In this document: positions 268-14,265 of the stretch, piece by piece | Layout: each line of letters begins with the position of its first letter | Numbering within the stretch: position 1 is the first letter of the stretch | IMG/VR virus record: IMGVR_UViG_2579778916_000002 | Reading direction: 5' to 3' (one strand) | Source of the DNA: a virus | Lineage: Duplodnaviria; Heunggongvirae; Uroviricota; Caudoviricetes | DNA: 14,265 nt | Made by a program: the position numbers and the translations under genes | The notes under the pieces: model-generated | Database searches by the model: none | What the model was told of the DNA's origin: nothing | What the model saw: only the letters and a program-made list of their open reading frames with translations

Positions 268-283
268 TCCTCACGCTCCATAA
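74..283 (+). other. Antisense shadow ORF, not a gene
   Basis: Lies entirely opposite the strongly supported J coding sequence. No independent support. Confidence 0.1.
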
Positions 284-308
284 ACGACAAAACCGCCCGC
301 AGGCGGTT
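281..308 (-). terminator. Terminator-like hairpin (AACCGCC / CGCA loop / GGCGGTT) followed on the minus strand by a U-rich tract, in the I-J spacer
   Basis: Read directly: 7-bp GC-rich stem at 291..308; minus-strand downstream sequence is TTTTGTCGTTTA. Lies between the I stop (328) and J start (267). Confidence 0.4.
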
Positions 309-327
309 TCACATAAAACATTTTGCA

Positions 328-969
328 TCAGCGACCAATCACCACAACCTGACCACCATCCCCTTCGTCTGCCGTGCTGATCTCCTGAGAAACCACGCGT
401 GACCCCACGCGCATTTCACCGTACAGAACAGGCAGAACATTGCCCTGGGCAACCATGTTATCCAGTGAAGAAAAATAGGTGTTCTGTTTGCCGTTATCCG
501 TTGTCTGTGTGCGGGGGGTTTTGGGTTTAGGGGCCAGCATCTGTGCAACACCGCCAAGCGTCATACTGGCACCGAGAGAAAACAGCAGATTACTCGCCAT
601 AATTCCTACCCCCGGCATCCATATAGCAACCGCCATAACAGCCGCCCCCAGCACAGCCTGAAACACACCGCCACTTTTGGCTCCCGCCAGACGCGGCACG
701 ATATGGATCACAGCACCATTTGCCAGCGGTTCATTAAGACGGGCTGATAATTCCGTTTCACCTGTATCACGCCCGGCAATGCGTACCTGATACCAGCCGT
801 CGCTCAGCTTCTGACGAAACGCCGGGATCTGCATGGCCAGCGCCCGGATGGCTTCGGCCCCCGTTTTCACACGCAGATCGATGCGGCGGCCAAATCGTTG
901 TAAATCCCCGTAAAGGCAGATGCGCGCCATGCCCGGTGACGCCAGAGGGAGTGTGTGCGTCGCTGCCAT
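328..969 (-). CDS. I: Tail assembly protein I
   Basis: 213-aa ORF with ATG start at 969. N-terminus MAATHTLPLASPGMARICLYGDLQRFGRRIDLRVKTGAEAIRALA and C-terminus NTYFSSLDNMVAQGNVLPVLYGEMRVGSRVVSQEISTADEGDGGQVVVIGR match lambda gpI as recalled. Overlaps the K 3' end by about 100 nt, as in lambda. Confidence 0.9.
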   Translation of the reverse strand: MAATHTLPLASPGMARICLYGDLQRFGRRIDLRVKTGAEAIRALAMQIPAFRQKLSDGWYQVRIAGRDTGETELSARLNEPLANGAVIHIVPRLAGAKSGGVFQAVLGAAVMAVAIWMPGVGIMASNLLFSLGASMTLGGVAQMLAPKPKTPRTQTTDNGKQNTYFSSLDNMVAQGNVLPVLYGEMRVGSRVVSQEISTADEGDGGQVVVIGR

Positions 970-1619
970 TTGTCGGTATACCTCTCTCGTTTGCTCAGTT
1001 GTTCAGGAATATGGTGCAGCAGCTCGCCGTCACCACAGTAAATGGCGGCATGATTCGGCACCGATGAACCAAAGCAGCACAGCAGCACATCGCCCGGTTG
1101 TGCTGATGACAACGGCACCTGATACAGCCCTGTGGCCTCCAGATTATCCAGATAGAGATTCTGACCGTGACGCCACCAGTCATCCCCGCGATGAAAATCC
1201 GGCATCTCAATTCCCGCCAGATGGTAAGCGTCCCGGAACAGCGTGTAACAGTCCGTCACCCCGTGCTCAAAGCGCCGCCCGGTGAGATGCGGCACACAGC
1301 GGAATTTATGAATCGCCCCCCGGCAGACCAGCCACCACGGCAAATCACTCTGCACCTGCAGCCGCCGGTCGGCCTCACTCAGCCAGGGCAGACCACCGGG
1401 GTGGCTGTGGACCAGCGCCACAATCTCTCCCTGCATTTCTGCACTCAGCCAGTCCTCCGGCGACATCCGGAAATACTCCTCCGGCTCACCGGATATATTC
1501 ACGCAGGGAAAATATCTTTCCCCCTCCGGTGTTCTCACCACGAAGCCGCACGACTCCGCTGGCGCACATCGCCGGGCGTGCGCCAGAATCGCTGATTCTG
1601 TCTCTGTCATGGGATTCAC
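867..1619 (-). CDS. K: Tail tip assembly protein K (MPN/JAMM plus NlpC/P60 domains)
   Basis: HSHPGG JAMM-like motif and a Cys/His NlpC/P60-like C-terminal half. Sits between L and I. Start is ambiguous: GTG at 1619 overlapping the L stop (GTGA), or ATG at 1610. Confidence 0.85.
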   Translation of the reverse strand: MNPMTETESAILAHARRCAPAESCGFVVRTPEGERYFPCVNISGEPEEYFRMSPEDWLSAEMQGEIVALVHSHPGGLPWLSEADRRLQVQSDLPWWLVCRGAIHKFRCVPHLTGRRFEHGVTDCYTLFRDAYHLAGIEMPDFHRGDDWWRHGQNLYLDNLEATGLYQVPLSSAQPGDVLLCCFGSSVPNHAAIYCGDGELLHHIPEQLSKRERYTDKWQRRTHSLWRHRAWRASAFTGIYNDLAAASICV

Positions 1620-2314
1620 TGCGAAAGTTTGTTAATGGAAAGGAAGCCGCCAAAGTTGCCGACGTTATTGCGAAACTTACAGCCGCTCAGGCATTTGCTG
1701 CATTTATCCTTCGTGATATCGGACGTCGGCTGATCATATTCATCCGCGACCGCCGGACCGTGATAACCGCACTCATCACCGCGATAGGTCCAGGTGCAGG
1801 TGTTGGCCAGCATGATACGTCCCGGAAAAACGGCACCGTCCGTTTCCGTCGGCGTGGACAGTACAAAAGAGGCACTCACCGCGCTCAGTTCACTGCACTG
1901 CTCGATGCGCCAGCGGCTGATCACCTCCTGCTCCGGATCGGCGTCACTGTTTCCGTTGACGAAGTTCACCGCATCCAGAAAACGGGCGTAAACCTTACGC
2001 CGGACCACCGTTCCTCCGACCAGACTCTGCAGGTCTTCCGCCATCCCGGTGACCATGCCGTGCAGGTTAGAAACCGTCAGTGTCGGACGGGCAGCACTGC
2101 CTTTGCCGTTCAGTTCAAATCCCGTCCCCTGAATGGGATACGCCTGATACTGTCGCCCCTGCCAGGTGACCGGCTCACCTTTATCGTTCTGCTCATTACA
2201 GAAAAAATAACGTTCACCACCGACCACTGTCAGATCGATTTCCCAGAGCACCACCTGGGCTGACTGAGTGAGGCGTGTCGTCTCATGATGTGTTTCCTGT
2301 GAAATATCCTGCAT
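1616..2314 (-). CDS. L: Tail tip protein L (Fe-S cluster-binding minor tail protein)
   Basis: 232 aa, near-identical to lambda gpL as recalled (MQDI..., C-terminal CSKCLSGCKFRNNVGNFGGFLSINKLSQ). ATG at 2314 preceded by GGAGG at 5-nt spacing. Confidence 0.93.
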   Translation of the reverse strand: MQDISQETHHETTRLTQSAQVVLWEIDLTVVGGERYFFCNEQNDKGEPVTWQGRQYQAYPIQGTGFELNGKGSAARPTLTVSNLHGMVTGMAEDLQSLVGGTVVRRKVYARFLDAVNFVNGNSDADPEQEVISRWRIEQCSELSAVSASFVLSTPTETDGAVFPGRIMLANTCTWTYRGDECGYHGPAVADEYDQPTSDITKDKCSKCLSGCKFRNNVGNFGGFLSINKLSQ

Positions 2315-2323
2315 CAGGGCCTC

Positions 2324-2653
2324 CTATGCCACGACCTGTTCAAAATCTGCCGTTATGGTTACCCACAGCGCCCCCACGCTTGCCGACCATTTACGACAAA
2401 CCACCCTGATCGGCTTCCAGTCATAAGGTGGCGTCCACTGAAATGCGCGGACGCCACCGTGCCGTTCCAGAAAGGCTTTTAAAGATGGGTGTTCACATTT
2501 ACGAACACGTATCGTCACGCTGTAAATCGACAACTGGTTATTCAGTCCCGCCGCACGACGCTGTTCATAACCATCGCCCAGCTTCACTGTCACCACTTTC
2601 GGCTCTGATACCACATTCATATCCGGGCGCACTTTCCAGTGAAACGTCTCCAT
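2324..2653 (-). CDS. M: Minor tail protein M
   Basis: 109 aa, the lambda gpM size, in the expected position. ATG at 2653 overlaps the H stop (TAATG), indicating translational coupling. Confidence 0.9.
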   Translation of the reverse strand: METFHWKVRPDMNVVSEPKVVTVKLGDGYEQRRAAGLNNQLSIYSVTIRVRKCEHPSLKAFLERHGGVRAFQWTPPYDWKPIRVVCRKWSASVGALWVTITADFEQVVA

Positions 2654-5600
2654 TACCGATATGCTCCACTTAACCGACCACCATCACGGGCCTGCTGTTG
2701 CATAAAGTCCGCTGCCGCTTTTTTCCCGAGGTCATAAACCACCTTCAGGGCAGCCGGACCTATCTGCCCGTTCGTGCCATCGTTATTGATCTCGATGTTG
2801 TACTGCGGGGCAAACATCGCCATACCTGAACCACCAATATCCGCCACAACCCCCAGCTTACCGTCAGCACCACGACGCAGTGGCAGAATGGCTTCAGGTC
2901 CCGCTTCCCCCATCACACCCGCGCCTTTTGCAAAAGCAAAAAACGTCGGACGGTTAACCACCGTGCCACTGTAACGACTCAAATCAGCAGACTGATAAAT
3001 CCCCCCATTGGCATTCAGGGAAAGGCTGCTGAGATCAAATCCCAGTACACTGCCAATCCCTTTTATCGATTTCATCATGGTTGCCTGCGCCAGGATTTTC
3101 GCCATATCTGACAGCACAGAAGAGGTGAAGGATTTGAAATTGAGTTTGCCGGTAGTGACAAAAGTTGCCAGGCCATTTCCCATGTTGCTGAAGGCTGACG
3201 AGAACACCTGTTCTGCTGTTCCTGCCGTATTATCTGCATCCACGGTAAAATTCTGAAATGCACGCAGGACTCCGTTTTTCCAGTTACCCTGCACAACTTC
3301 AAGCTGTTGCCAGTAACGGCGATTCTCATTCAGTTGTCGGTTCAGGCTCTCCGTCAGCGCCTGCTCGGCCTTTCTGTAGTCATCCGTGTTATATGTTCCT
3401 TTCTGCTCACTATCCCGCCTCAACTGCTCCAGCTGTTGCTGGTATTTCTGGCGAAGACTCAGTTGTACCTGATATCGCTGCCGCTGCTGATCACCCATAC
3501 CCACCGTGGCGATATCCAGGTCATGTTGCTGACGCTGAGCGCGCTCTTCTTCAGCCAGTTGACTGGTCAGCTGAATTGTTTTTTTCTTCAGCTCGTTGAG
3601 TGCCGTCTGTTTCTGAAGCTCCTGCTGTTTTACATCCAGCAGCGTCAGTGCCTGAATCAGTTCATCTTTACGGGCCAGCACACTCTTTTCATCTGCCGTC
3701 AGTTTTTTCCCGTCCAGGTCGCTGATGCGCTGCTGCAGAGCCAGAAGCTGTTTATGCGCTTCTGTCATCCTTTCCGTGGCAATGCCTGCTGACTGTCTGG
3801 CAGCAGCAATCTGTCCTTCCACCTGTGCCTGTTGCTGACTGTACTGCAGCAATAACCGGGTGGCCTCATCATTACGGGGTTCGCGTGTTTTTTTCTTACC
3901 GGATGCCAGGGCTTTCTCGTAACGTTCATTTTCACGTTGTATCGCCGCATCCCTGACAGCCTGATCGGCGTACTGCATGGAATTAATACGCGCAATTTCA
4001 CGCTGATGTCGTGCTGCTTCCGTTTCATTCATCCGGTTCAGTGCAGCATTTTCAGCATTACGGCGTTTCTGTTGCTCCTGATAATTCTGCTCTGCCTGCT
4101 CTTTTGCATCCTGCAAATCCTTCTGGCGTTTTTTCTTCTGAAGCTCGTTAAGACGCTGCTGATCGTACTCAACCTGAGAAGATGATGCCGTCCAGGGGAG
4201 TCTTTTCGCCCGCGACACTTTCTCCTGTAAAGCGGAAATCTGTTCATCCAGCGAGTCTTCACGACCAATATTCATGGCCGCATCCCAGAAACGACTCCAT
4301 AAATCAGACAGATACTTCAGCGTACTGCCCAGCGCATTGAGGTTATTATCAATATCCGCAGTACGCCGACCGGTTTCCTCTGCCAGTGCAGACATGGCTA
4401 TCCGTGCCGCATCACTGGACCGCCCCTGTTCCCCAAGGACGCGTATCTGCTCAAGCTGAGTGGCAGTAAGAAAATGCAGCTCATTGTCCAGAGCCTTCGC
4501 GGCATTTACAGGATCATCCTTCAGCCGCTTAAACTGATTTATGGTATCGCTGACCGACTGGCCAACCGATCGCTCCATCTGTGCGGCAGCTCTCGCCACC
4601 ATACCGATATCGTTTCCACGAAATGCACCACTCCCCACCACCTGAGCCAGCGCACCGGCTGCAGCATGTTGCGTGATACCATTCCCGGAAATAGCACGAC
4701 TGAGCGTCCACAGCTGCCCGGCAGTGACTCCGGCATAATGCCCCGTCAGCGACAACTGGCGGTTAAATTCTTCCCCCTCCTTCTGACCATCATACCAGGC
4801 TTTACCCAGACCATAGACGGCCGCGGCAATACCGCCAATAACCCCGCCCAGCATCATGCCTTTCGGTGACATCAGTGTGTCTATCCATCCGGCACGGTTA
4901 GCCAGCGTTATCCCGGATCCCCTCAGCGCACCTAAATTGCCGCGAGCCAGTTCACCTATCAGAACGCCTATCTCCTGGCGGGCCGCTGCACTTTTCAGAC
5001 CCAGCGAATGCGTGGCTTTTCCTGCCTGCTCCATTTTGCGGATATACACTTCTGCAGCACTGCTTACCCCCAGCTGGGCAGCCTTAGCACGAAGCAACTC
5101 AGAAGAAGAAAGATTCTGGCGGGTTGCCTGCTCTTTAAGCTGACGGATAAACGCCACTTTCTGTCGGGTAGCCTCTTCCTCAGCCTGTGTAAGAACACGA
5201 GTTTTCGCAGTAACCTCAGAAATCAGCGCCAGATAATCCTGCTGACCAATCCCGCCACTGTTTCTGGCCTGTCGGATCTGCTGCTGAATACGCTGTAATT
5301 CCTGCAGCCCCGCACTGGCCTGTTTCACACTGTCAATCTGACGATAAAACGCAGCAGCCGCTTTATCCTGAGCCTCCGCCAGAGCCATGGCCTGCGCCTG
5401 TTCCTCGCGCATTTTCTGGCTCAGTGCCTCCATGCGCTGGCGGGTTTTCTCCACCTCGCGGGCCATGCGTTCATGAGCCTGTGCGTTCTTCTCCACCGTC
5501 TGCGCATGGACGGATGCGGCTGTTGCAGCCGAAGAAGCCGCCTGCATTGTCTGCCGGGCGGCCTGAGTCTGACGCTCCATAAAACGCTGCATACGGGCAG

Positions 5601-5718
5601 AAGACCGTTCTGCATCGCTGGCTGCACCATTCAGAAGGTTTTTGATACGGGGAATTTCATTTTTAAACTCTGCCGCATCAATCCCCAAATCAATGACCAG
5701 GTTGGCTATCTGGTCCAT
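2653..5718 (-). CDS. H: Tail tape measure protein H (1021 aa from the ATG at 5718; the track ORF begins 10 codons upstream at a TTG)
   Basis: N-terminus MDQIANLVIDLGIDAAEF and C-terminus EINNDGTNGQIGPAALKVVYDLGKK...DGGRLSGAYR are collinear with lambda gpH as recalled. Long Q/A/E/R-rich coiled-coil centre. ATG 5718 is preceded by GGAGG at 8-nt spacing. Confidence 0.9.
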   Translation of the reverse strand: MDQIANLVIDLGIDAAEFKNEIPRIKNLLNGAASDAERSSARMQRFMERQTQAARQTMQAASSAATAASVHAQTVEKNAQAHERMAREVEKTRQRMEALSQKMREEQAQAMALAEAQDKAAAAFYRQIDSVKQASAGLQELQRIQQQIRQARNSGGIGQQDYLALISEVTAKTRVLTQAEEEATRQKVAFIRQLKEQATRQNLSSSELLRAKAAQLGVSSAAEVYIRKMEQAGKATHSLGLKSAAARQEIGVLIGELARGNLGALRGSGITLANRAGWIDTLMSPKGMMLGGVIGGIAAAVYGLGKAWYDGQKEGEEFNRQLSLTGHYAGVTAGQLWTLSRAISGNGITQHAAAGALAQVVGSGAFRGNDIGMVARAAAQMERSVGQSVSDTINQFKRLKDDPVNAAKALDNELHFLTATQLEQIRVLGEQGRSSDAARIAMSALAEETGRRTADIDNNLNALGSTLKYLSDLWSRFWDAAMNIGREDSLDEQISALQEKVSRAKRLPWTASSSQVEYDQQRLNELQKKKRQKDLQDAKEQAEQNYQEQQKRRNAENAALNRMNETEAARHQREIARINSMQYADQAVRDAAIQRENERYEKALASGKKKTREPRNDEATRLLLQYSQQQAQVEGQIAAARQSAGIATERMTEAHKQLLALQQRISDLDGKKLTADEKSVLARKDELIQALTLLDVKQQELQKQTALNELKKKTIQLTSQLAEEERAQRQQHDLDIATVGMGDQQRQRYQVQLSLRQKYQQQLEQLRRDSEQKGTYNTDDYRKAEQALTESLNRQLNENRRYWQQLEVVQGNWKNGVLRAFQNFTVDADNTAGTAEQVFSSAFSNMGNGLATFVTTGKLNFKSFTSSVLSDMAKILAQATMMKSIKGIGSVLGFDLSSLSLNANGGIYQSADLSRYSGTVVNRPTFFAFAKGAGVMGEAGPEAILPLRRGADGKLGVVADIGGSGMAMFAPQYNIEINNDGTNGQIGPAALKVVYDLGKKAAADFMQQQARDGGRLSGAYR

Positions 5719-6040
5719 AACGCACACCTCCGGAAATACCTTCCCCAAGATGCATCAGTTCTTCGTCCGTTCGCTCCGGTATCCCGTTCTCTTCCGGTAA
5801 AAGGCTGAAATCAGCCACCGCAGCATCACTGCTACCGGACACCATTCTCACGATCAATGCCTTCAGCGAGGCAAACTGCGCATCCATCCACACATCACTG
5901 AAGCTCTGCATCCGGAAATAATCGCCCCACTCACCAAGCTCAGTGGCCGACATTTCCGACAGCATCCGCCGCCAGTCTGCCCGCCGGAACTCCCGGGCAA
6001 GCCGCATGACAAACTGCATTTCCCGCGTCAGGACTTTTCC
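5690..6040 (-). CDS. T: Tail assembly chaperone T segment, expressed as a G-T fusion by -1 programmed frameshift near the G 3' end
   Basis: ORF in the -1 frame relative to G, open from just upstream of the G stop, with no SD or start of its own. Lambda G/T arrangement. Its 3' end overlaps the H start by 29 nt. Confidence 0.8.
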   Translation of the reverse strand, partial: GKVLTREMQFVMRLAREFRRADWRRMLSEMSATELGEWGDYFRMQSFSDVWMDAQFASLKALIVRMVSGSSDAAVADFSLLPEENGIPERTDEELMHLGEGISGGVRYGPDSQPGH

Positions 6041-6414
6041 GGCGTCAGCACCTCATGCTCCAAATCCCCGGCATTCTCAATGACTCCCATACCGCTCAGC
6101 GACAGAACCATCTCCGCCCCCGCTCCCAGGGCATCATACGACCATGTTGTAATAACGGATGCGCAAAGCGTCTCAACATCCTGAGACTGTTCCGCATTCC
6201 ACAGTGAGCGGGAAACCAGCCAGGCATTGATATCCATCCCCATCCGCAGAAAAGCAATCTGTCGTTCAGCCTCCGGCAGTTCTCCCTCTTCGGCATCAAA
6301 CTTTGCCGTTCGCTGCTGAACAAACGCCAGATATTCAATTCTCTGCAGCCCGGACAGCTCACTGAGCACCACGGACTGCTTTTCATAATTAAACGTGCCC
6401 TGTTTCAGAAACAT
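6028..6414 (-). CDS. G: Tail assembly chaperone G
   Basis: 128 aa starting MFLKQGTF... (lambda gpG begins MFLK...). GGTGGAG SD upstream of the tandem ATG ATG (6417/6414). Stop TGA at 6030..6028. Confidence 0.88.
   Translation of the reverse strand: MFLKQGTFNYEKQSVVLSELSGLQRIEYLAFVQQRTAKFDAEEGELPEAERQIAFLRMGMDINAWLVSRSLWNAEQSQDVETLCASVITTWSYDALGAGAEMVLSLSGMGVIENAGDLEHEVLTPEKS
6034..6040 (-). other. Putative -1 ribosomal slip site GGAAAAG (zero-frame codons CCG GAA AAG) for the G-T fusion
   Basis: Read from the minus strand. Lies inside the 25-nt window where the G frame and the T frame are both open. Contains the A AAG lysine slip motif. Confidence 0.6.
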
Positions 6415-6430
6415 CATGTTCTCCACCTGC

Positions 6431-6454
6431 AAAAAAGCCCCGGATAACCGGGGC
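6431..6454 (-). terminator. Intrinsic terminator-like hairpin between V and G (GCCCCGG / TTAT loop / CCGGGGC, then TTTTTT)
   Basis: Read directly: 7-bp GC stem at 6437..6454 plus a 6-nt T-run on the minus strand (6431..6436), sitting between the V stop (6475) and the G SD. Confidence 0.55.
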
Positions 6455-6474
6455 AAATGATGAGTATCGTCCTG

Positions 6475-7218
6475 TTAACCTGCGGCGCTGACAGCCACCG
6501 CAGCCACTGCCACAAAATCGCCGTCAGAAGTCATGCCCACAATGCTGACACTGCCCTGCTTCACGCCTTTCACCGTGGCCACAAGCCCGTTCAGGGTCAC
6601 CGTGGCAGTCTGTGGATCTGTCGAATGCACACTGATCGCTTTGTCACTGGCTCCGTCAGGTTTTACTGTAAAGGTCAGCGTGGTGGTTGCTCCCACTTTT
6701 ACACTGGCAGATGCCGGTGCCACCGTCAGCCCGGTAACGCTCACTGTTTCAGTGCCTTCCTCTGCCAGATACGGACGCCCCACACCGCTGATTTTCACTG
6801 TGCGGGTCATCACGTCTTTTGAGGCAATGGTTTTACCCAGTGAGCTCAGCCAGCCACGGAAAACATCAACAGTGCCGTTGGGATATTTGATACGAAACGC
6901 GCAGACTTCACCGGAGTCGAACAACTGAACCAGTTTTTTCTGCCCGCTGTCACCCGGACGCCAGGCCAGCGTCGCCGAAGTATCACCAACGGATTTCTGC
7001 CCCTGGGTTGTCGTTTTCCAGTCTGCATCTTCATCATCGAGATAAGTGTCATCTTCTGCATCAGCGGTCATTTCGCCAGGTTGCAGATCCTTCACCATCG
7101 CAAGACGCAGCCAGTCAGTGTCCGATAAAGGGTTCGCAAACGCATCGCCCTTGCCGGTGTACATCCAGAACGTCGTTCCCGCACCTTTCGTTTTTGCCAG
7201 TGGATTTGGTGTGGTCAT
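6475..7218 (-). CDS. V: Major tail tube protein V with C-terminal Ig-like (Big_2-type) domain
   Basis: 247 aa from ATG 7218, preceded by AGGAGG at 5-nt spacing. KGAGTT..., YLDDEDADW and NGTVDVFRGW motifs as in lambda gpV as recalled. C-terminal T/V/S-rich beta domain. Confidence 0.9.
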   Translation of the reverse strand: MTTPNPLAKTKGAGTTFWMYTGKGDAFANPLSDTDWLRLAMVKDLQPGEMTADAEDDTYLDDEDADWKTTTQGQKSVGDTSATLAWRPGDSGQKKLVQLFDSGEVCAFRIKYPNGTVDVFRGWLSSLGKTIASKDVMTRTVKISGVGRPYLAEEGTETVSVTGLTVAPASASVKVGATTTLTFTVKPDGASDKAISVHSTDPQTATVTLNGLVATVKGVKQGSVSIVGMTSDGDFVAVAAVAVSAAG

Positions 7219-7229
7219 TGCCACCTCCT

Positions 7230-7631
7230 TTAATTCGTGTACGTGATCTGGTACGTGATTTCCGCCATCGCCCAGGTGGCCATCTCATTATCACGTTGAT
7301 AGTTAAAACCGAGAGGGATCAGGGTGTCGATGAGTCCGGAAAGTGCCGGTATATCATTCAGGGCCGGGAAAATGGTGCTCTCCATCCACATATCCAGCTC
7401 TGAATCCGGTGCCTGTGCCCGGATGAAGACAGCAATATGCAGAACAGCCTGCCAGTCATCTTCATCCGTCATTTTTCCGGTGTACTGAGCATCACTCAGC
7501 CACACCGCCACGGCAGGCAGTTCCTGCGCATCAATAAATGCCGGAAGCCCGTCAAAAAACGTGGCGCTGTCTCCACACTGTTCCCGAAGGCGTGCCAGTA
7601 CGGCCTGGCGGATTTGTGTATGTCGGTTCAT
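7230..7631 (-). CDS. U: Tail terminator protein U
   Basis: MNRHTQIRQAVLARL...ATFFDG...PAVAV resembles lambda gpU (MKHTELRAAVL...) as recalled. ATG 7631 overlaps the Z stop (ATGA). The track ORF starts 4 codons upstream at ATG 7643. Confidence 0.85.
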   Translation of the reverse strand: MNRHTQIRQAVLARLREQCGDSATFFDGLPAFIDAQELPAVAVWLSDAQYTGKMTDEDDWQAVLHIAVFIRAQAPDSELDMWMESTIFPALNDIPALSGLIDTLIPLGFNYQRDNEMATWAMAEITYQITYTN

Positions 7632-8206
7632 CGGGTCAGCCATAACCTCAGTTGTTGTTTCAGTGCATACCCCAGCTGTTTCGGCATTTCCGCAGCAATA
7701 ATGCGGTCGCGGGCATCTTCAAATGCCTGTGTCAGCGGTCCGGACAGCGGGACTTTCACCACATCAATGGGGTAACGATTTTTGCCATCAATACGCCGCA
7801 TCACATGCCAGCGACCATTCGCCAGTTGCTGAATAAACGCATCCCGGAAAAGATATTTACCCACCTTCAGCACACTGCCACGGTACTGCAGTTTTCCACC
7901 ACGCCGGGCCAGTCTGACCCGGGCTGTCCCCAGCTTAATAGCGGGCAGATTGCCCCGGTTAACGCGGATCCTGGCCGTCATTTTTCCTGACGGACTGGCT
8001 TTAAACACCCGGACACGCTGACGTACCAGTTTCAGGGGGATCCCTTTCACCTGGTTATCTCCCGCAACGGTATTCCCGGCAACCTGCCGGGTGGCGACCG
8101 AGACCGCTTTCTGTGCCACACGGTTTATCGCCCATGCGCTGGCCTGTGGCACCATACGGGTATCAAGGCTGTTCAGATTACGGATGGCATTCTCAAGCCC
8201 CTTCAT
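7628..8206 (-). CDS. Z: Tail completion protein Z
   Basis: 192 aa, the lambda gpZ size and position. N-terminus MKGLENAIRNLNSL. ATG 8206 preceded by AGAGG at 6-nt spacing. Confidence 0.85.
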   Translation of the reverse strand: MKGLENAIRNLNSLDTRMVPQASAWAINRVAQKAVSVATRQVAGNTVAGDNQVKGIPLKLVRQRVRVFKASPSGKMTARIRVNRGNLPAIKLGTARVRLARRGGKLQYRGSVLKVGKYLFRDAFIQQLANGRWHVMRRIDGKNRYPIDVVKVPLSGPLTQAFEDARDRIIAAEMPKQLGYALKQQLRLWLTR

Positions 8207-8217
8207 CCCACACCTCT

Positions 8218-8493
8218 TTACTCAATAAAGATCATTGGCTTACCGTTAAAACGTTCATGCCGTGTGACCGTCCATTGTTGTCCGTCATAAACAACGCGAT
8301 CCCCGCGCCGTGGGCGGTATCCCGAAGAAAACACCACCAGAGAGACCGCAGGTCCGGACAGAGCATTCAGCTCTGCCAGTGTTTCTCCCGGGATCACAGT
8401 CATATCGACATCATTAATCGAGGCTGTCTTTCCCATCTTTCTAACCGTGATAGCATCCATACGCGCTGCCAGCCGGGAAAAGGGATCAGACAT
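8218..8493 (-). CDS. Head-tail joining protein, FII-like (Gifsy-2-type family)
   Basis: 91 aa immediately upstream of Z. C-terminal RRGDRVVYDGQQWTV resembles the lambda gpFII RRGD region. ATG 8493 overlaps the stop of the upstream gene. Confidence 0.6.
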   Translation of the reverse strand: MSDPFSRLAARMDAITVRKMGKTASINDVDMTVIPGETLAELNALSGPAVSLVVFSSGYRPRRGDRVVYDGQQWTVTRHERFNGKPMIFIE

Positions 8494-8809
8494 TGAGTTT
8501 TACCGGCACTTCTTCTGCACTGGTTCCGGCATCTGCCCAGACAACCCCGACCAGCGGATCAGAGCCGCTGTTAGTCAGCTGAACTTTTCCGGACTTCAGA
8601 TAAACCTTCTTACCCGTTTTCATGTCATCCGTTTTCAGCTTAGGCAGCATAAACACACCTTCGGTCATGCCGTCGCCTGTTTCACCCTGTGGAATATCGG
8701 TCAGCGCCACCGCAAAAACATCGCCCACCTGCACCAGATCTCCGCTGCTGATGGCTGCACTGGCAACAATCGCCACCGTTTTTCCTTCTTCTACAAAATT
8801 CTTTGCCAT
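8486..8809 (-). CDS. Small head-associated protein, DUF2190-like (possible decoration/head-completion protein)
   Basis: 107 aa from ATG 8809, with GGAG at 6-nt spacing. Position directly after the major capsid gene. Family assignment is from memory of the sequence type, not a search. Confidence 0.5.
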   Translation of the reverse strand: MAKNFVEEGKTVAIVASAAISSGDLVQVGDVFAVALTDIPQGETGDGMTEGVFMLPKLKTDDMKTGKKVYLKSGKVQLTNSGSDPLVGVVWADAGTSAEEVPVKLNV

Positions 8810-8852
8810 AACTGTCTCCGCACAGCCCCGTTCAGGGGCTGATTTCAGGTAC

Positions 8853-8871
8853 AAAAAAAGCCCTTACGGGC
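8853..8871 (-). terminator. Short terminator-like hairpin (GCCC / GTAA loop / GGGC) plus 7-nt U-tract immediately downstream of the capsid gene
   Basis: Read directly. A second 7-bp hairpin without a U-tract follows at 8823..8841 (CAGCCCC / TGAAC loop / GGGGCTG on the minus strand). Confidence 0.4.
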
Positions 8872-8895
8872 CATCAGAGTTGTTGTCTGCGACGT

Positions 8896-10854
8896 TTACG
8901 CCGTACATTTCACCAGACCGCGGTGATCAACTGGCGCGACACCGGCGTCAATACGCACTTTCGTTGTCACGCCATCCACACTGAAGCCCTCCATCTGATC
9001 AATATATGGCGTATCCACACCGTTGAGATAAGCCACTTCAATCGTATCGGAGCCTTTTGACGCAGCCAGGTAGAAGGTGGTCTGGCTGTTATCATCAAGA
9101 CGAGGCTCTGCAATAACGGTCGCAAAATCTTTCACCGGGTTAATAATACCGGCGTTAATGTCAGCCCCCTTGACACTTGAGGAGCGAATGACCTGGTTAG
9201 CAACAGACTCCATCGCCGTCGGTACCAGTACGAACGCAGGACGAATATTCAGATGACGCTCCCCCTCTTTCTGAACGCGCATCAACTGGCGGGCTTTATC
9301 CAGCGATGCCACGTCCATTGCAGCGCTCTCCAGTACGTTTGCATGTTTCGCTTTATCGAACAGACTTACATTATCTGTGGAGATTTTCGGGTTAGACGTC
9401 AGAATGGCATAAACCAGATCGGCAATAGTGGATTTCGCCGCACGGCCCAGTTTCATCGGGACATCGGTCAGCATATTCAGATCATCATTGATAATGGCCT
9501 GACGGGTGATACTGAACAGCTCGCCATAGGTCGCCAGTGCAATAGTGGCCTGTTTATCTCCGGTGGTGACGTATTTATATTCCGCCCCTTCACGCACCTG
9601 ACGCAGAGCACTGAAGCCCCCCATACCCACACGATGGGCAATTTTAAAATCAGACAACTGACCTTTCCGCGTCCACTGTTCATAGGTTTCAGGGGCATCT
9701 TCCCAGCCCTGCAGAATGGCTTTGTTCGCAACATCCAGCAGAATATTACCGAAGTCAGACGTACTGTGTGTGAACGCCGCACCGACCATCTGCATCGGGT
9801 TATAACCGGAAACCCCAATACCCCGTTCAGTTAGTGACATACGGGCATATTCACGCAGGGTCATCCCGTTGTAGACATTATCACGTTCGGTTTTTTCAAA
9901 TCCGGCACGCGCCATCAGCGCCTGGCGGATCCCGTCCCCCACAAAATTACCGTTACCGGCATAAATATGAGCCGGGGTATTTTTATTGGATGGCGTGGAC
10001 TCGCGCCCCATCTCGTTCAACAGCTTTTCACGGGCCTGCTCCAGCGAACATTCAGGATCGGCAAGACACTGGGCCTGCAGCATCTGATAACGCCCGCCAA
10101 ACATGGCAAACAGATCATTAATACCGTTTACACGCGCTTTTTGCTCTGCCAGTACCTGCGCACGGATACTGTTTTCATCCACCACGGGTGCTGCTGCCTG
10201 CACTGGCGTCCGGGAGGCTGCAGGTTCATCATCCTGTACGCGTGGAGCACTGTTGCGTGGCGGAGTAATCATGTTTCGAATGGATTCCGGCATCTTTTTA
10301 AATTCCTCTGTACGTTTTGACTGAATACATGCCATTGCCTTAACGGCTGGTGTCACCTGATCAGCAAATCCCTGTGCCAGACATTCGGCACCGGACATCC
10401 AGGTCTCATCCGCCAGCATGGCAGCAATTTCATCGGTGGTTTTCCCGGTTTTCTGTGCATAAGCGGGTAACAGAACCGCCTCAACTTTATCGAGCAGGTC
10501 GGCATAGGTGCGCATGTCCTCCGCATCACCGCCCGTAAAGCCAAATGGTTTATGAATCATCATGAAGGAGTTTTCCGGCATAATGATCGGGTTTCCCACC
10601 ATCGCAATGACCGACGCCATTGACGCCGCCACACCGTCGACATAAACGGTAATGGACGCACCATGTGTTTTCAGTGCATTAAAAATGGCGATGCCTTCAA
10701 AGACATCGCCACCCGGTGAATTAATATGGAGATTAATGTGGGTGATATCGCCCAGTGCATTCAGATCACTGATAAACTGCTTCGCTGTAACACCCCAGAA
10801 ACCAATCTCGTCATAAATATAAATATCCGCGTCACTCTGGTGACCTGCCTGCAT
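8896..10854 (-). CDS. Tripartite head gene: ClpP-like prohead protease, scaffold-like linker and HK97-fold major capsid protein in one ORF
   Basis: 652 aa from ATG 10854 with no internal stop. N-terminal ClpP-like motifs (GVAASMASV serine, MMIHKP histidine), a coiled-coil-like middle, and a C-terminal ~350-aa capsid-like domain. Matches the Gifsy-2 tripartite capsid gene architecture. The track's 87-codon upstream extension overlaps the portal 3' end and is rejected. Confidence 0.8.
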   Translation of the reverse strand: MQAGHQSDADIYIYDEIGFWGVTAKQFISDLNALGDITHINLHINSPGGDVFEGIAIFNALKTHGASITVYVDGVAASMASVIAMVGNPIIMPENSFMMIHKPFGFTGGDAEDMRTYADLLDKVEAVLLPAYAQKTGKTTDEIAAMLADETWMSGAECLAQGFADQVTPAVKAMACIQSKRTEEFKKMPESIRNMITPPRNSAPRVQDDEPAASRTPVQAAAPVVDENSIRAQVLAEQKARVNGINDLFAMFGGRYQMLQAQCLADPECSLEQAREKLLNEMGRESTPSNKNTPAHIYAGNGNFVGDGIRQALMARAGFEKTERDNVYNGMTLREYARMSLTERGIGVSGYNPMQMVGAAFTHSTSDFGNILLDVANKAILQGWEDAPETYEQWTRKGQLSDFKIAHRVGMGGFSALRQVREGAEYKYVTTGDKQATIALATYGELFSITRQAIINDDLNMLTDVPMKLGRAAKSTIADLVYAILTSNPKISTDNVSLFDKAKHANVLESAAMDVASLDKARQLMRVQKEGERHLNIRPAFVLVPTAMESVANQVIRSSSVKGADINAGIINPVKDFATVIAEPRLDDNSQTTFYLAASKGSDTIEVAYLNGVDTPYIDQMEGFSVDGVTTKVRIDAGVAPVDHRGLVKCTA

Positions 10855-10867
10855 CCTGAACCAGGAA

Positions 10868-11362
10868 TTATTCTTCGGACTGGTCGTCGGTGTGCTGCGG
10901 CTCCTGTCGTTTCGTTGCGGCACTGCTGCCTCCTTTATCACTGGCCGGATCGGTATCAAATACCAGATCCAGCTTGCGGTTTTCATCAATTTCGGCCTTG
11001 CGCCGACGTTTGACATCATCCGGATTACGACCACCTGCACGTACCCAGTCTGATTCTGTCGCCGCTCCACCACGAATCTGAATTTTCCAGGCCTCAGCCT
11101 CCTTAACAGGGTCAATCCACGGCATCACCGGTCCGGAATACACCGCGGTATACAGTGAAGATCGGTCCAGATCGCGGGGTAGCCTGATAACACCGGATGC
11201 CACAGCCTGTTTCAGCCAGGCACGGTACATCGGGCGGGTGACGGCACCAATAAACCAGTCCTGCAGGATCAGGTAGCCATCAGTAGATTCAACCAGCTCC
11301 TGACGCTGGGCGCTGTAAGTGCCGTTATAGTTGCGCGCTGTACTGGAAAAACTCAGACGACT
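10868..11362 (-). pseudogene. Portal protein 3' fragment (164 codons plus stop), cut at the repeat junction with no start codon in this copy
   Basis: Frame is open from the junction to TAA at 10868. Acidic, charged C-terminal tail (...RRRKAEIDENRKLDLVFDTDPASDKGGSSAATKRQEPQHTDDQSEE) and position just upstream of the protease, typical of lambda-like portals. Confidence 0.6.
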
Positions 11363-11541
11363 GCCTGCATTGTCTGCCGGGCGGCCTGAGTCTGACGCTC
11401 CATAAAACGCTGCATACGGGCAGAAGACCGTTCTGCATCGCTGGCTGCACCATTCAGAAGGTTTTTGATACGGGGAATTTCATTTTTAAACTCTGCCGCA
11501 TCAATCCCCAAATCAATGACCAGGTTGGCTATCTGGTCCAT
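11353..11541 (-). pseudogene. Tape measure H 5' stub: 60 N-terminal codons of H, then Val-Val-stop across the junction
   Basis: Identical to the first 60 codons of H (copy 1) up to the junction at 11363. Diverges after 11362 and hits TGA at 11355..11353. Confidence 0.85.
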
Positions 11542-11863
11542 AACGCACACCTCCGGAAATACCTTCCCCAAGATGCATCAGTTCTTCGTCCGTTCGCTCC
11601 GGTATCCCGTTCTCTTCCGGTAAAAGGCTGAAATCAGCCACCGCAGCATCACTGCTACCGGACACCATTCTCACGATCAATGCCTTCAGCGAGGCAAACT
11701 GCGCATCCATCCACACATCACTGAAGCTCTGCATCCGGAAATAATCGCCCCACTCACCAAGCTCAGTGGCCGACATTTCCGACAGCATCCGCCGCCAGTC
11801 TGCCCGCCGGAACTCCCGGGCAAGCCGCATGACAAACTGCATTTCCCGCGTCAGGACTTTTCC
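11513..11863 (-). CDS. T: Tail assembly chaperone T frameshift segment (copy 2)
   Basis: Identical to 5690..6040. Confidence 0.75.
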   Translation of the reverse strand, partial: GKVLTREMQFVMRLAREFRRADWRRMLSEMSATELGEWGDYFRMQSFSDVWMDAQFASLKALIVRMVSGSSDAAVADFSLLPEENGIPERTDEELMHLGEGISGGVRYGPDSQPGH

Positions 11864-12237
11864 GGCGTCAGCACCTCATGCTCCAAATCCCCGGCATTCT
11901 CAATGACTCCCATACCGCTCAGCGACAGAACCATCTCCGCCCCCGCTCCCAGGGCATCATACGACCATGTTGTAATAACGGATGCGCAAAGCGTCTCAAC
12001 ATCCTGAGACTGTTCCGCATTCCACAGTGAGCGGGAAACCAGCCAGGCATTGATATCCATCCCCATCCGCAGAAAAGCAATCTGTCGTTCAGCCTCCGGC
12101 AGTTCTCCCTCTTCGGCATCAAACTTTGCCGTTCGCTGCTGAACAAACGCCAGATATTCAATTCTCTGCAGCCCGGACAGCTCACTGAGCACCACGGACT
12201 GCTTTTCATAATTAAACGTGCCCTGTTTCAGAAACAT
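11851..12237 (-). CDS. G: Tail assembly chaperone G (copy 2)
   Basis: Identical to 6028..6414. Confidence 0.85.
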   Translation of the reverse strand: MFLKQGTFNYEKQSVVLSELSGLQRIEYLAFVQQRTAKFDAEEGELPEAERQIAFLRMGMDINAWLVSRSLWNAEQSQDVETLCASVITTWSYDALGAGAEMVLSLSGMGVIENAGDLEHEVLTPEKS

Positions 12238-12253
12238 CATGTTCTCCACCTGC

Positions 12254-12277
12254 AAAAAAGCCCCGGATAACCGGGGC
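12254..12277 (-). terminator. V-G intergenic terminator-like hairpin (copy 2)
   Basis: Identical to 6431..6454. Confidence 0.5.
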
Positions 12278-12297
12278 AAATGATGAGTATCGTCCTG

Positions 12298-13041
12298 TTA
12301 ACCTGCGGCGCTGACAGCCACCGCAGCCACTGCCACAAAATCGCCGTCAGAAGTCATGCCCACAATGCTGACACTGCCCTGCTTCACGCCTTTCACCGTG
12401 GCCACAAGCCCGTTCAGGGTCACCGTGGCAGTCTGTGGATCTGTCGAATGCACACTGATCGCTTTGTCACTGGCTCCGTCAGGTTTTACTGTAAAGGTCA
12501 GCGTGGTGGTTGCTCCCACTTTTACACTGGCAGATGCCGGTGCCACCGTCAGCCCGGTAACGCTCACTGTTTCAGTGCCTTCCTCTGCCAGATACGGACG
12601 CCCCACACCGCTGATTTTCACTGTGCGGGTCATCACGTCTTTTGAGGCAATGGTTTTACCCAGTGAGCTCAGCCAGCCACGGAAAACATCAACAGTGCCG
12701 TTGGGATATTTGATACGAAACGCGCAGACTTCACCGGAGTCGAACAACTGAACCAGTTTTTTCTGCCCGCTGTCACCCGGACGCCAGGCCAGCGTCGCCG
12801 AAGTATCACCAACGGATTTCTGCCCCTGGGTTGTCGTTTTCCAGTCTGCATCTTCATCATCGAGATAAGTGTCATCTTCTGCATCAGCGGTCATTTCGCC
12901 AGGTTGCAGATCCTTCACCATCGCAAGACGCAGCCAGTCAGTGTCCGATAAAGGGTTCGCAAACGCATCGCCCTTGCCGGTGTACATCCAGAACGTCGTT
13001 CCCGCACCTTTCGTTTTTGCCAGTGGATTTGGTGTGGTCAT
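12298..13041 (-). CDS. V: Major tail tube protein V (copy 2)
   Basis: Identical to 6475..7218. Confidence 0.88.
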   Translation of the reverse strand: MTTPNPLAKTKGAGTTFWMYTGKGDAFANPLSDTDWLRLAMVKDLQPGEMTADAEDDTYLDDEDADWKTTTQGQKSVGDTSATLAWRPGDSGQKKLVQLFDSGEVCAFRIKYPNGTVDVFRGWLSSLGKTIASKDVMTRTVKISGVGRPYLAEEGTETVSVTGLTVAPASASVKVGATTTLTFTVKPDGASDKAISVHSTDPQTATVTLNGLVATVKGVKQGSVSIVGMTSDGDFVAVAAVAVSAAG

Positions 13042-13052
13042 TGCCACCTCCT

Positions 13053-13454
13053 TTAATTCGTGTACGTGATCTGGTACGTGATTTCCGCCATCGCCCAGGT
13101 GGCCATCTCATTATCACGTTGATAGTTAAAACCGAGAGGGATCAGGGTGTCGATGAGTCCGGAAAGTGCCGGTATATCATTCAGGGCCGGGAAAATGGTG
13201 CTCTCCATCCACATATCCAGCTCTGAATCCGGTGCCTGTGCCCGGATGAAGACAGCAATATGCAGAACAGCCTGCCAGTCATCTTCATCCGTCATTTTTC
13301 CGGTGTACTGAGCATCACTCAGCCACACCGCCACGGCAGGCAGTTCCTGCGCATCAATAAATGCCGGAAGCCCGTCAAAAAACGTGGCGCTGTCTCCACA
13401 CTGTTCCCGAAGGCGTGCCAGTACGGCCTGGCGGATTTGTGTATGTCGGTTCAT
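13053..13454 (-). CDS. U: Tail terminator protein U (copy 2)
   Basis: Identical to 7230..7631. Confidence 0.83.
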   Translation of the reverse strand: MNRHTQIRQAVLARLREQCGDSATFFDGLPAFIDAQELPAVAVWLSDAQYTGKMTDEDDWQAVLHIAVFIRAQAPDSELDMWMESTIFPALNDIPALSGLIDTLIPLGFNYQRDNEMATWAMAEITYQITYTN

Positions 13455-14029
13455 CGGGTCAGCCATAACCTCAGTTGTTGTTTCAGTGCATACCCCAGCT
13501 GTTTCGGCATTTCCGCAGCAATAATGCGGTCGCGGGCATCTTCAAATGCCTGTGTCAGCGGTCCGGACAGCGGGACTTTCACCACATCAATGGGGTAACG
13601 ATTTTTGCCATCAATACGCCGCATCACATGCCAGCGACCATTCGCCAGTTGCTGAATAAACGCATCCCGGAAAAGATATTTACCCACCTTCAGCACACTG
13701 CCACGGTACTGCAGTTTTCCACCACGCCGGGCCAGTCTGACCCGGGCTGTCCCCAGCTTAATAGCGGGCAGATTGCCCCGGTTAACGCGGATCCTGGCCG
13801 TCATTTTTCCTGACGGACTGGCTTTAAACACCCGGACACGCTGACGTACCAGTTTCAGGGGGATCCCTTTCACCTGGTTATCTCCCGCAACGGTATTCCC
13901 GGCAACCTGCCGGGTGGCGACCGAGACCGCTTTCTGTGCCACACGGTTTATCGCCCATGCGCTGGCCTGTGGCACCATACGGGTATCAAGGCTGTTCAGA
14001 TTACGGATGGCATTCTCAAGCCCCTTCAT
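13451..14029 (-). CDS. Z: Tail completion protein Z (copy 2)
   Basis: Identical to 7628..8206. Confidence 0.83.
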   Translation of the reverse strand: MKGLENAIRNLNSLDTRMVPQASAWAINRVAQKAVSVATRQVAGNTVAGDNQVKGIPLKLVRQRVRVFKASPSGKMTARIRVNRGNLPAIKLGTARVRLARRGGKLQYRGSVLKVGKYLFRDAFIQQLANGRWHVMRRIDGKNRYPIDVVKVPLSGPLTQAFEDARDRIIAAEMPKQLGYALKQQLRLWLTR

Positions 14030-14040
14030 CCCACACCTCT

Positions 14041-14265
14041 TTACTCAATAAAGATCATTGGCTTACCGTTAAAACGTTCATGCCGTGTGACCGTCCATTG
14101 TTGTCCGTCATAAACAACGCGATCCCCGCGCCGTGGGCGGTATCCCGAAGAAAACACCACCAGAGAGACCGCAGGTCCGGACAGAGCATTCAGCTCTGCC
14201 AGTGTTTCTCCCGGGATCACAGTCATATCGACATCATTAATCGAGGCTGTCTTTCCCATCTTTCT
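14041..14265 (-). CDS. FII-like head-tail joining protein (copy 2), 3' part only; start lies beyond the window end
   Basis: Identical to 8218..8442 of copy 1. The window ends 51 nt before the expected ATG. Confidence 0.55.
   Translation of the reverse strand, partial: RKMGKTASINDVDMTVIPGETLAELNALSGPAVSLVVFSSGYRPRRGDRVVYDGQQWTVTRHERFNGKPMIFIE

What the first reader, a model, noticed from the sequence alone, without database searches (positions are those of the whole stretch)
11340..11380. Novel junction joining portal interior to tape-measure codon 60
At 11362|11363 the portal reading frame abuts H-derived sequence in a different frame. This leaves a portal 3' fragment (10868..11362) with no start, and a 62-codon H N-terminal stub (11353..11541) ending Val-Val-stop. 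Both breakpoints fall inside essential genes, as expected for illegitimate recombination rather than site-specific or module-boundary exchange. No flanking homology is visible on the sides present in the window (11343..11362 versus 5520..5539).
Basis: partly seen in the sequence, partly recalled or inferred. Interest (0 to 1): 0.5.

Follow-up and report, generated by a model that had tools for sequence, protein, structure and literature searches.

The report
Prophage repeat joint, probably assembly artefact
The portal-to-tape-measure junction is really in the sequence and is the joint of a head-to-tail repeat in a common E. coli lambdoid prophage, but it sits in a gap-flanked contig of a draft scaffold, and contigs assembled from what are probably the same strain's reads lack it, so it is most likely an assembly or library product and at best an ordinary private tandem duplication.

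Summary
At 11362|11363, portal codon 339 onward abuts the first 60 codons of tape-measure gene H in another frame. This gives a 62-codon stub ending Val-Val-stop and a startless 164-codon portal fragment. 11363..14265 repeats 5540..8442 exactly (offset 5,823), so this is the joint of a head-to-tail repeat. An intact H remains at 2653..5718. Comparison with intact portals shows 3 bp of perfect microhomology (GCC) and 6/7 imperfect.

The junction occurs in none of 5,426 complete E. coli genomes, nor in the phage, plasmid, viral, metagenome or species-representative collections.

I traced the window to one contig of draft scaffold KK736383.1 (GCA_000692575.1), with 2,753 N on one side and 2,412 N on the other. 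Copy 2 is cut by the gap. The public record has N at 11369. The unambiguous part of copy 2 is bounded by two sites that vary in this strain's data (8443 and 11369).

Four independently assembled read-set contigs carry this strain's unique H protein. The two fetched read straight through H codon 60 with no junction. The same scaffold holds a second private non-homologous head-to-tail joint between 88%-identical J/lom alleles.

Most likely this is an assembly or library artefact, or a minority molecule (about 0.6). A genuine clonal microhomology-mediated duplication remains possible (about 0.2). Interest is low.

The parts
11356..11369 (.). The joint itself. Portal-derived sequence ends at 11362 and H-derived sequence begins at 11363. 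The breakpoint is ambiguous within GCC (11363-11365).
   Evidence: No natural portal allele has T at 11366, so 11363-11368 is H-derived.
11363..14265 (-). 'Copy 2': H codons 1-60, T, G, V, U, Z and the 3' part of the FII-like gene. It ends at the contig edge next to a 2,753-N gap.
   Evidence: Identical to 5540..8442. The gap is shown. Base 11369 is N in the public record.
5540..11362 (-). 'Copy 1': the full 5,823-bp unit, from H codon 60 through T, G, V, U, Z, FII-like, DUF2190 and the ClpP-protease/capsid fusion to portal codon 339.
   Evidence: It differs from the CP019250 prophage only at 5546 (5539 lies one base outside the unit).
11353..11541 (-). Chimeric 62-codon ORF: H residues 1-60 plus Val-Val-stop.
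   Evidence: No Pfam hit. The exact product is absent from the 15-billion-protein collection.
10868..11362 (-). Portal 3' fragment, codons 339-502, without a start codon. The first in-frame ATG is at 11230.
   Evidence: The full-length relative is 502 aa, with Phage_portal_2 over residues 35-372.
2653..5718 (-). Intact tape-measure gene H (1,021 aa), continuous with copy 1.
   Evidence: TMP_2, TMP_4, Tape_meas_lam_C.
5539..5546 (.). The only two differences from the closest complete genomes over 1..11362: 5539 C (relatives have T) and 5546 A (relatives have G, giving Thr58Met). They lie 0 and 7 nt from the H-side breakpoint. 5546 corresponds to the ambiguous base 11369.
   Evidence: C..A is a common natural H allele.
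8443..8443 (.). First base beyond the repeated stretch. It is the only difference between the window and the read-set contigs L154 and L155 (window A, contigs G), and it is a common natural SNP.
   Evidence: Contigs of unrelated assemblies start at 8442 in 86 blocks, against 21 for a control.

Best explanation
The joint is present in the deposited sequence but is most likely not a fixed feature of the bacterial chromosome.

The window is one contig of a short-read draft scaffold (GCA_000692575.1, KK736383.1) covering the late region of a roughly 45-kb lambdoid prophage at the ydfJ (Qin) site. The strain appears to carry two nearly identical versions of the tail-gene segment, probably from a second lambdoid prophage. 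These versions differ at a few SNPs and diverge in J/lom.

The assembler could not resolve them. It left gaps on both sides of this contig. It emitted the stretch between two variable sites (5546/11369 and 8443) a second time, and attached that stretch to the portal interior.

The joint itself has the topology 'end of a 5.8-kb fragment joined to its start'. I infer it came from a chimeric read, such as a mate-pair circularisation junction, from a gap-patching step, or from a minority rearranged molecule. It has no function.

If it were transcribed, the late operon would yield a 62-residue H stub and an untranslated portal fragment, while intact copies of the tail genes remain.

Shown here: the contig and gap structure, the ambiguous base, the variable sites at the repeat ends, junction-free contigs from independent read sets, and the second odd joint. 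Inferred: that those read sets are the same isolate, the assembler and library type, and the exact route by which the joint arose.
For: - The reverse complement of the window starts directly after a 2,753-N run in KK736383.1. The other end abuts a 2,412-N run.
- The record has a single N at window 11369, 7 nt from the joint.
- The window's exact H protein (Met58 on a CP019250-type backbone) exists only in this scaffold and in four Logan read-set contigs. The two fetched, L154 and L155, are 11.1 kb. They match window 10002..1 with one mismatch, at 8443, and continue 1.1 kb into J. They read straight through 8442|8443 and 5539|5540. A junction present in every cell would force a graph branch there.
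- 8443 A/G is a common natural SNP, and 8442 is a frequent contig edge elsewhere.
- The other side of the gap is terminase codon 448 (parent coordinate 13341). A complete second copy would need 4,898 bp, against 2,753 N in the record.
- The same scaffold has two J-C-terminus/lom copies, 88-89% identical, joined head to tail by another non-homologous 3-bp joint. That joint is also absent from 5,426 complete genomes.
- The junction is absent from every collection searched.
Against: - The joint is contiguous called sequence, not an N gap. No portal allele explains GCCTGC at 11363-11368, so some reads or a patch must have carried it.
- It shows more microhomology than chance: 3 bp perfect (P about 0.06) and 6/7 (P about 0.008). 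It also contains CTG/CAG triplets, like genuine E. coli amplification joints (PMC1428787). Blunt-ligation chimeras need no microhomology.
- The two breakpoints lie only 5.8 kb apart in direct orientation, which is typical of a local in vivo event.
- I could not verify that SRR1187738 and SRR1187819 are the reads of this very isolate rather than a sibling.
- I could not verify which assembler or libraries were used.
- The portal-side breakpoint is not a special contig edge. Controls gave similar counts.
Confidence: 0.6

Rival explanations
1. Genuine, clonal tandem duplication of 5,823 bp within the prophage. It would arise by RecA-independent, microhomology-mediated illegitimate recombination: template switching between sister forks, or unequal sister-chromatid joining, at GCC (GCCYGCA). 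The result is A-B-B-C, with an intact portal upstream, an intact H downstream, one chimeric stub ORF, and a genome about 13% longer (roughly 45 to 51 kb) that would probably exceed cos-packaging capacity.
For: - Direct orientation and a 5.8-kb unit.
- 3-bp perfect and 6/7 microhomology above chance.
- CTG at 11361, 11365 and 11374 and CAG at 11354, as at E. coli amplification joints with 4-15 bp microhomology and 7-32 kb units (PMC1428787).
- No differences between the copies, so the event would be recent.
- A short-read assembler facing a true 5.8-kb tandem repeat would also leave a gap.
Against: - Read-set contigs carrying the strain-specific H pass through H codon 60 without a branch.
- The gap is 2.1 kb too short for a full copy.
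- Copy 2 is bounded by sites that vary in the data (8443 and 11369=N), which a real duplication would hit only by coincidence (about 1e-3 for the H side).
- There is a second private head-to-tail joint in the same scaffold.
- The joint is absent from all other genomes.
- There is no selective reason to keep a duplication of silent late genes, and tandem repeats are unstable (established knowledge).
Confidence: 0.2
2. The joint is real but subclonal. It would be a rearranged molecule present in a minority of cells, or in replicating DNA of the spontaneously induced prophage, picked up by the assembler as an alternative path. It could equally have formed as a deletion between two tandemly arranged or concatemeric prophage genomes, from H codon 60 of one to portal codon 338 of the next, which gives the same product.
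For: - The microhomology and local direct topology argue for an in vivo origin.
- Its absence from read-set contigs is compatible with low relative coverage being pruned.
- Duplications are common in growing cultures (PMC3411829).
- The prophage encodes an 823-aa exonuclease next to xis/int.
Against: - A single specific joint would have to reach several percent of molecules to survive error correction.
- There is no direct evidence of induction.
- It does not explain the second joint or the coincidence with the variable sites.
Confidence: 0.15
3. The joint records inter-prophage illegitimate recombination. Copy 2 would belong to a second, nearly identical prophage fused to the first, so the two 'copies' come from different elements.
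For: - Two haplotypes exist in the data (8443 A/G and 11369 N).
- Two J/lom alleles are present in the scaffold.
- The window's H allele (C..A) differs from the CP019250 backbone only next to the breakpoint.
Against: - The same read-set argument applies as for a clonal duplication.
- The copies are identical wherever both are called.
- It cannot be told apart from scaffold interleaving without reads.
Confidence: 0.05

Closest known systems
False duplications next to gaps in short-read draft assemblies (two near-identical repeats or haplotypes both placed in one scaffold), and chimeric mate-pair circularisation junctions
   Same: - The contig is bounded by N gaps.
- The duplicated stretch is bounded by variable sites.
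- There is an ambiguous base beside the joint.
- A second head-to-tail joint of diverged alleles lies nearby.
- The 'end of fragment joined to its start' topology has a 5.8-kb span.
- Independent assemblies of the reads lack the joint.
   Different: - The joint has more microhomology than blunt ligation predicts.
- The assembler and library types are inferred from my own knowledge of such scaffolds, not verified here.
RecA-independent, microhomology-mediated tandem duplication or amplification joints in E. coli (long-distance template switching; Slack et al. 2006, PMC1428787)
   Same: - Direct repeat of kilobase size.
- Breakpoints inside unrelated genes.
- Short, imperfect, G/C-rich microhomology.
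- CTG/CAG triplets at the joint.
- All genes are preserved in one copy.
   Different: - The microhomology here is only 3 bp perfect, against 4-15 bp reported there.
- No selection for dosage is conceivable for silent late genes.
- The unit (5.8 kb) is slightly below the reported 7-32 kb.
- The joint's physical existence is unconfirmed.
Tandem duplication mutants of phage lambda (Bellett/Busse/Baldwin and Emmons/Baldwin, 1970s; recalled from my own knowledge, not retrieved here)
   Same: A head-to-tail duplication of a few kb inside a cos-packaged lambdoid genome, formed independently of the known recombination systems.
   Different: Those mutants were selected in deletion phages to restore DNA content. 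Here the parent is full length (about 45 kb), so +5.8 kb would overfill the head.
Mosaic module boundaries of lambdoid prophages
   Same: Neighbouring sites (5539/5546, 8443) are natural allele differences between prophage lineages.
   Different: The portal|H joint itself is not an exchange between homologous modules. It joins non-homologous gene interiors and is found in no other genome.

Membership tests
Tandem (head-to-tail) duplication | The same segment occurs twice in direct orientation, with a single novel joint of the form B-end|B-start. | tested here: met
   5540..8442 equals 11363..14265, and the joint is at 11362|11363.
Tandem (head-to-tail) duplication | The second copy is complete and continuous with the native downstream flank (the rest of the portal). 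| tested here: not met
   Copy 2 stops after 2,903 bp at a 2,753-N gap. The far side of the gap is terminase codon 448. A full copy would need 4,898 bp.
Tandem (head-to-tail) duplication | The joint is supported by the reads at clonal depth, with 2x depth over the unit. | tested here: inconclusive
   No reads were available. As an indirect test, Logan contigs L154 and L155, from read sets carrying the strain-unique H protein, show no branch at H codon 60. Whether they come from the same isolate is inferred.
Microhomology-mediated illegitimate recombination joint | No long homology between the parental contexts, and a few bp of identity at the crossover beyond chance. | tested here: met
   GCC is perfect (P about 0.058) and GCCYGCA matches 6/7 (P about 0.008). 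With the T..G allele of the closest relatives it is CTGCC (P about 0.007).
Site-specific or module-boundary exchange | The joint lies at an att-like site or at a gene or module boundary shared by other phages. | tested here: not met
   Both breakpoints lie inside coding sequence (portal codon 338/339, H codon 59/60). The joint is absent from all collections.
Assembly or scaffolding false duplication | It lies beside scaffold gaps, and the duplicated block is delimited by repeat or variant boundaries. | tested here: met
   There are gaps on both sides of the contig. The block 11370..14265 is delimited by N (11369, corresponding to SNP 5546) and by SNP 8443.
Assembly or scaffolding false duplication | It is not reproduced by an independent assembly of the same reads. 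| tested here: inconclusive
   L154 and L155 lack it. The run-to-isolate link could not be verified.
Lambda-like late operon (context) | Gene order: portal, protease/capsid, head-tail joining genes, Z, U, V, G, T, H, M, L, K, I, J. | tested here: met
   RefSeq annotation of near-identical prophages (2 mismatches over window 1..11362) and Pfam hits.

The most novel reading that the evidence does not exclude
The joint is real and is one of two linked illegitimate joints produced in a single complex event between two co-resident, nearly identical lambdoid prophages. This would be multi-template switching of the break-induced-replication type. It would leave a hybrid prophage with a duplicated head-tail module, and a short patch of the other prophage's H allele (5539/5546) exactly at the breakpoint.
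Probability: 0.08. Interest if true: 0.35.

Novelty: not a real feature. Interest (0 to 1): 0.1.

Why it matters
If genuine, this would be one more private, recent, microhomology-level tandem duplication in silent prophage genes. That would be a useful but unsurprising data point on illegitimate recombination. It would probably also make the prophage too long to package.

Its main practical value is as a warning. In gap-rich short-read scaffolds of E. coli strains with several lambdoid prophages, head-to-tail 'duplications' and chimeric stub ORFs can be produced by the assembly. They should not be counted as rearrangements, pseudogenes or new ORFs without read support.

Tried and rejected
1. 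**Hairpin-prone breakpoint.** The window's H allele forms GCCGCC..GGCGGC (-9.5 kcal/mol), but this is no better than shuffled sequence (z = -0.35). The portal side does not fold. Rejected.
2. **Portal-side breakpoint as a recurrent contig edge or mosaic boundary.** The 164-aa fragment occurs at contig starts in 29 blocks. Controls starting 1-3 nt or 42 nt away, or one codon upstream, gave 24, 51 and 50 blocks. There is no specificity. Rejected or inconclusive.
3. **The real break is at the single N, and GCCTGC is a portal allele.** No portal with T at 11366 exists in 1,853 genomes or in viral contigs. Rejected.
4. **The 5539/5546 pair as de novo mutations made by the event.** Both states equal a common natural H allele (773 genomes, 87 viral contigs). 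Carriers match the window exactly from 5487 to as far as 6987. They therefore reflect a second haplotype or a conversion tract, not random mutagenesis.
5. **Finding the joint elsewhere through its protein.** The 62-aa and 72-aa stubs with Met, Thr or X at residue 58 are not on record. The homology search returned only other truncated H N-termini.
6. **The joint creating a terminator.** A weak 5-bp hairpin plus T-run spans it on the transcribed strand, but an equivalent hairpin exists in the native portal. Late transcription is also Q-antiterminated (established knowledge).
7. **Rfam.** No RNA family was found in the window.
8. **Literature.** No paper mentions this assembly or a portal-H duplication.

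Full report
**What is in the window**

The window is the late region of a lambda-like E. coli prophage read on the minus strand. The gene order is J (5' end), I, K, L, M, H (2653..5718), T, G, V, U, Z, an FII-like gene, a DUF2190 gene, a ClpP-protease/major-capsid fusion (8896..10923), and the 3' part of a lambda-family portal gene.

- 5540..8442 is repeated without a mismatch at 11363..14265. The repeat runs to the window end, at an offset of 5,823.
The minus-strand ORF 11541..11353 is H residues 1-60 followed by Val-Val-stop. 11362..10868 is portal residues 339-502 with no start. The two frames differ.
- In this topology nothing is destroyed. An intact H follows copy 1, and an intact portal would lie upstream of copy 2.

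**Parent and microhomology**

Positions 1..11362 differ by only two bases (5539 and 5546) from the prophage at the ydfJ/Qin site of many complete E. coli genomes, such as CP019250. That prophage is about 45 kb.

- The intact portal there reads ...GACGACT GCCCGCAGCC.
- H in the window reads ...GAAGCC GCCTGCATTG.
- The joint reads ...GACGACT GCCTGCATTG.

The crossover therefore lies within GCC, which is 3 bp of perfect identity, or 6 of 7 with one mismatch. Random position pairs in the same DNA give at least 3 bp perfect in 5.8% of cases. They give a stretch of at least 7 with one mismatch in 0.8%. CTG/CAG triplets flank the joint. This matches the genuine E. coli amplification joints described by Slack et al., which have 4-15 bp microhomology and 7-32 kb units (PMC1428787).

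**Is it found elsewhere?**

No.

- A 400-bp query across the joint is covered by no record among 5,426 complete E. coli genomes, 50,697 phage records or 72,556 plasmids. Every match stops at the joint.
- Exact 40-mer and 25-mer searches found nothing in species-representative genomes, metagenome contigs or viral contigs.
- The chimeric product is not on record.

**Where the window comes from**

A look-up of the 120-aa internal portal ORF returned scaffold KK736383.1 of GCA_000692575.1, which has the same gene order, including a 62-aa ORF.

- The reverse complement of the window begins directly after a 2,753-N run. It matches the scaffold except at one position, window 11369, which is N in the record.
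- The other end of the window abuts a 2,412-N run. The window is therefore exactly one contig of a gapped draft scaffold.
- Beyond the first gap lies the large terminase, cut at codon 448 (parent coordinate 13341). A complete second copy would need 4,898 bp where the record has 2,753 N.

**Evidence that the repeat is an unresolved two-haplotype region**

*The differences from close relatives sit at the breakpoint.* The two differences from the closest genomes lie 0 and 7 nt from the H-side breakpoint. Their state (C..A) is a common natural H allele whose carriers differ further to the left. Position 5546 corresponds to the N at 11369.

*Independent read-set contigs lack the joint.*
- The window's exact H protein occurs only in this scaffold and in four contigs assembled independently from sequencing runs (SRR1187738, SRR1187819 and two more).
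- One NCBI assembly matched by four runs suggests these are the isolate's own libraries. This is an inference.
- The two contigs fetched equal window 10002..1 and run on into J. They have a single mismatch, at 8443, the base immediately beyond the repeated stretch.
- 8443 A/G is a common natural SNP. Contigs of unrelated assemblies often start at 8442: 86 blocks, against 21 for a control.
- The unambiguous part of copy 2 (11370..14265) is therefore exactly the interval between two sites that vary in this strain's data.
- These contigs read straight through H codon 60 and through 8442|8443. A joint present in every cell would force a branch in a k-mer graph at H codon 60.

*A second odd joint in the same scaffold.*
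- After the second gap the scaffold carries two J-C-terminus/lom segments. They are 88-89% identical and lie head to tail.
- They are joined at L153 19964 by another non-homologous joint with 3 bp of identity.
- That joint too is absent from all complete genomes.
- CP019250 has a single J/lom.
- Two private head-to-tail joints 8.6 kb apart, each in a contig beside a gap, point to pieces of two prophages being interleaved in one scaffold.

**Interpretation**

*Most likely, about 0.6.* The joint is a product of assembly or library preparation. Its topology, the end of a 5.8-kb fragment joined to its start, is that of a mate-pair circularisation junction. Gap-patching in an unresolved repeat could then fix such a read into the consensus. 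The assembler and library type are my inference, not verified. A minority rearranged molecule would look the same.

*Against this.* The joint is called sequence, not a gap. GCCTGC at 11363-11368 cannot be a portal allele. The microhomology is more than blunt ligation predicts.

*Rivals.*
- A genuine clonal tandem duplication by microhomology-mediated template switching remains possible (about 0.2).
- A real but subclonal event is also possible (about 0.15).
- A deletion between two tandem or concatemeric prophage genomes would give the identical product.

*Consequences if genuine.* They would be modest: a 62-residue H stub, an untranslated portal fragment, second copies of the genes from the capsid fusion to T, and a genome about 13% longer. 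That length would probably exceed cos-packaging capacity. The packaging point is an inference from lambda's 78-105% limits, which is established knowledge.

**Ideas tested and dropped**

- A hairpin at the breakpoint folds no better than shuffled sequence.
- The portal breakpoint is not a special recurrent contig edge, because controls gave equal counts.
- A neo-terminator at the joint is not credible, because an equivalent hairpin is native to the portal.
- No Rfam family is present.

**Verdict**

The biological reality of the joint is doubtful, and if real it is an ordinary kind of mutation. Read mapping or an outward-facing PCR on the isolate would settle the question.

Noticed in passing
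L153 19940-19990 (source scaffold KK736383.1, about 4.2 kb beyond window position 1): There is a second head-to-tail joint. The tail-fibre 5' end (about 193 nt in) of one allele is joined to the J interior of another, with 3 bp of identity (GGA). This puts two J-C-terminus/lom copies, 88-89% identical, in tandem. It is absent from 5,426 complete genomes.
   Followed up: partly
window 11369 (L125 9862): The public record has a single N where the window shows A. It is the position equivalent to the H allele SNP at 5546, and it lies 7 nt from the joint.
   Followed up: yes
window 5539 and 5546: These are the only two differences from the closest complete genomes over 11,362 bp. 5546 changes Thr58 to Met in H. 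Both match a common alternative H allele. Carriers of that allele match the window exactly from 5487 to as far as 6987, so the tract is between 8 and 1,501 bp long.
   Followed up: yes
window 8443: This is the only base at which read-set contigs L154 and L155 differ from the window (G versus A). It is a common SNP between lambdoid lineages, and 8442 is a frequent contig start in unrelated short-read assemblies.
   Followed up: yes
H codons 56-67 (window about 5518-5553); proteins P0001-P0011: Many short, frameshifted or truncated H N-termini in public assemblies break within codons 56-67, and four break right after codon 60. This suggests a local hot spot for indels or sequencing errors in this GC-rich stretch. 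The search's word filter limits how far this can be read.
   Followed up: partly
L122-L124, L126-L129 (E. coli O157:H7 EDL933 and relatives): In these genomes the homologous portal gene is split into a 350/374-aa ORF and the same 120-aa C-terminal ORF. This is an apparent frameshift pseudogene that recurs across many O157 assemblies.
   Followed up: no
L003 3036-5371 (strain CDF6; also GF8 and GF75): An ISEc22 (IS66-family) element interrupts the K-like C40 peptidase gene of an otherwise identical prophage.
   Followed up: no
window 6019-6060 (and 11842-11883), minus strand: The G/T overlap lacks the canonical lambda slippery heptamer GGGAAAG. G ends ...CCG GAA AAG TCC TGA. The site of the expected programmed -1 frameshift was not identified.
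   Followed up: no
window 11354-11367, minus strand: A weak terminator-like hairpin plus T-run spans the joint, directly after the stub's stop codon. An equivalent hairpin exists in the native portal sequence, so the joint does not create it.
   Followed up: yes
L125 1262, 1266 and 2244 (contig on the far side of the gap): There are three further differences from the CP019250 prophage in 4.2 kb, and two of them are 4 nt apart. Clustered SNP pairs therefore also occur away from the joint.
   Followed up: no
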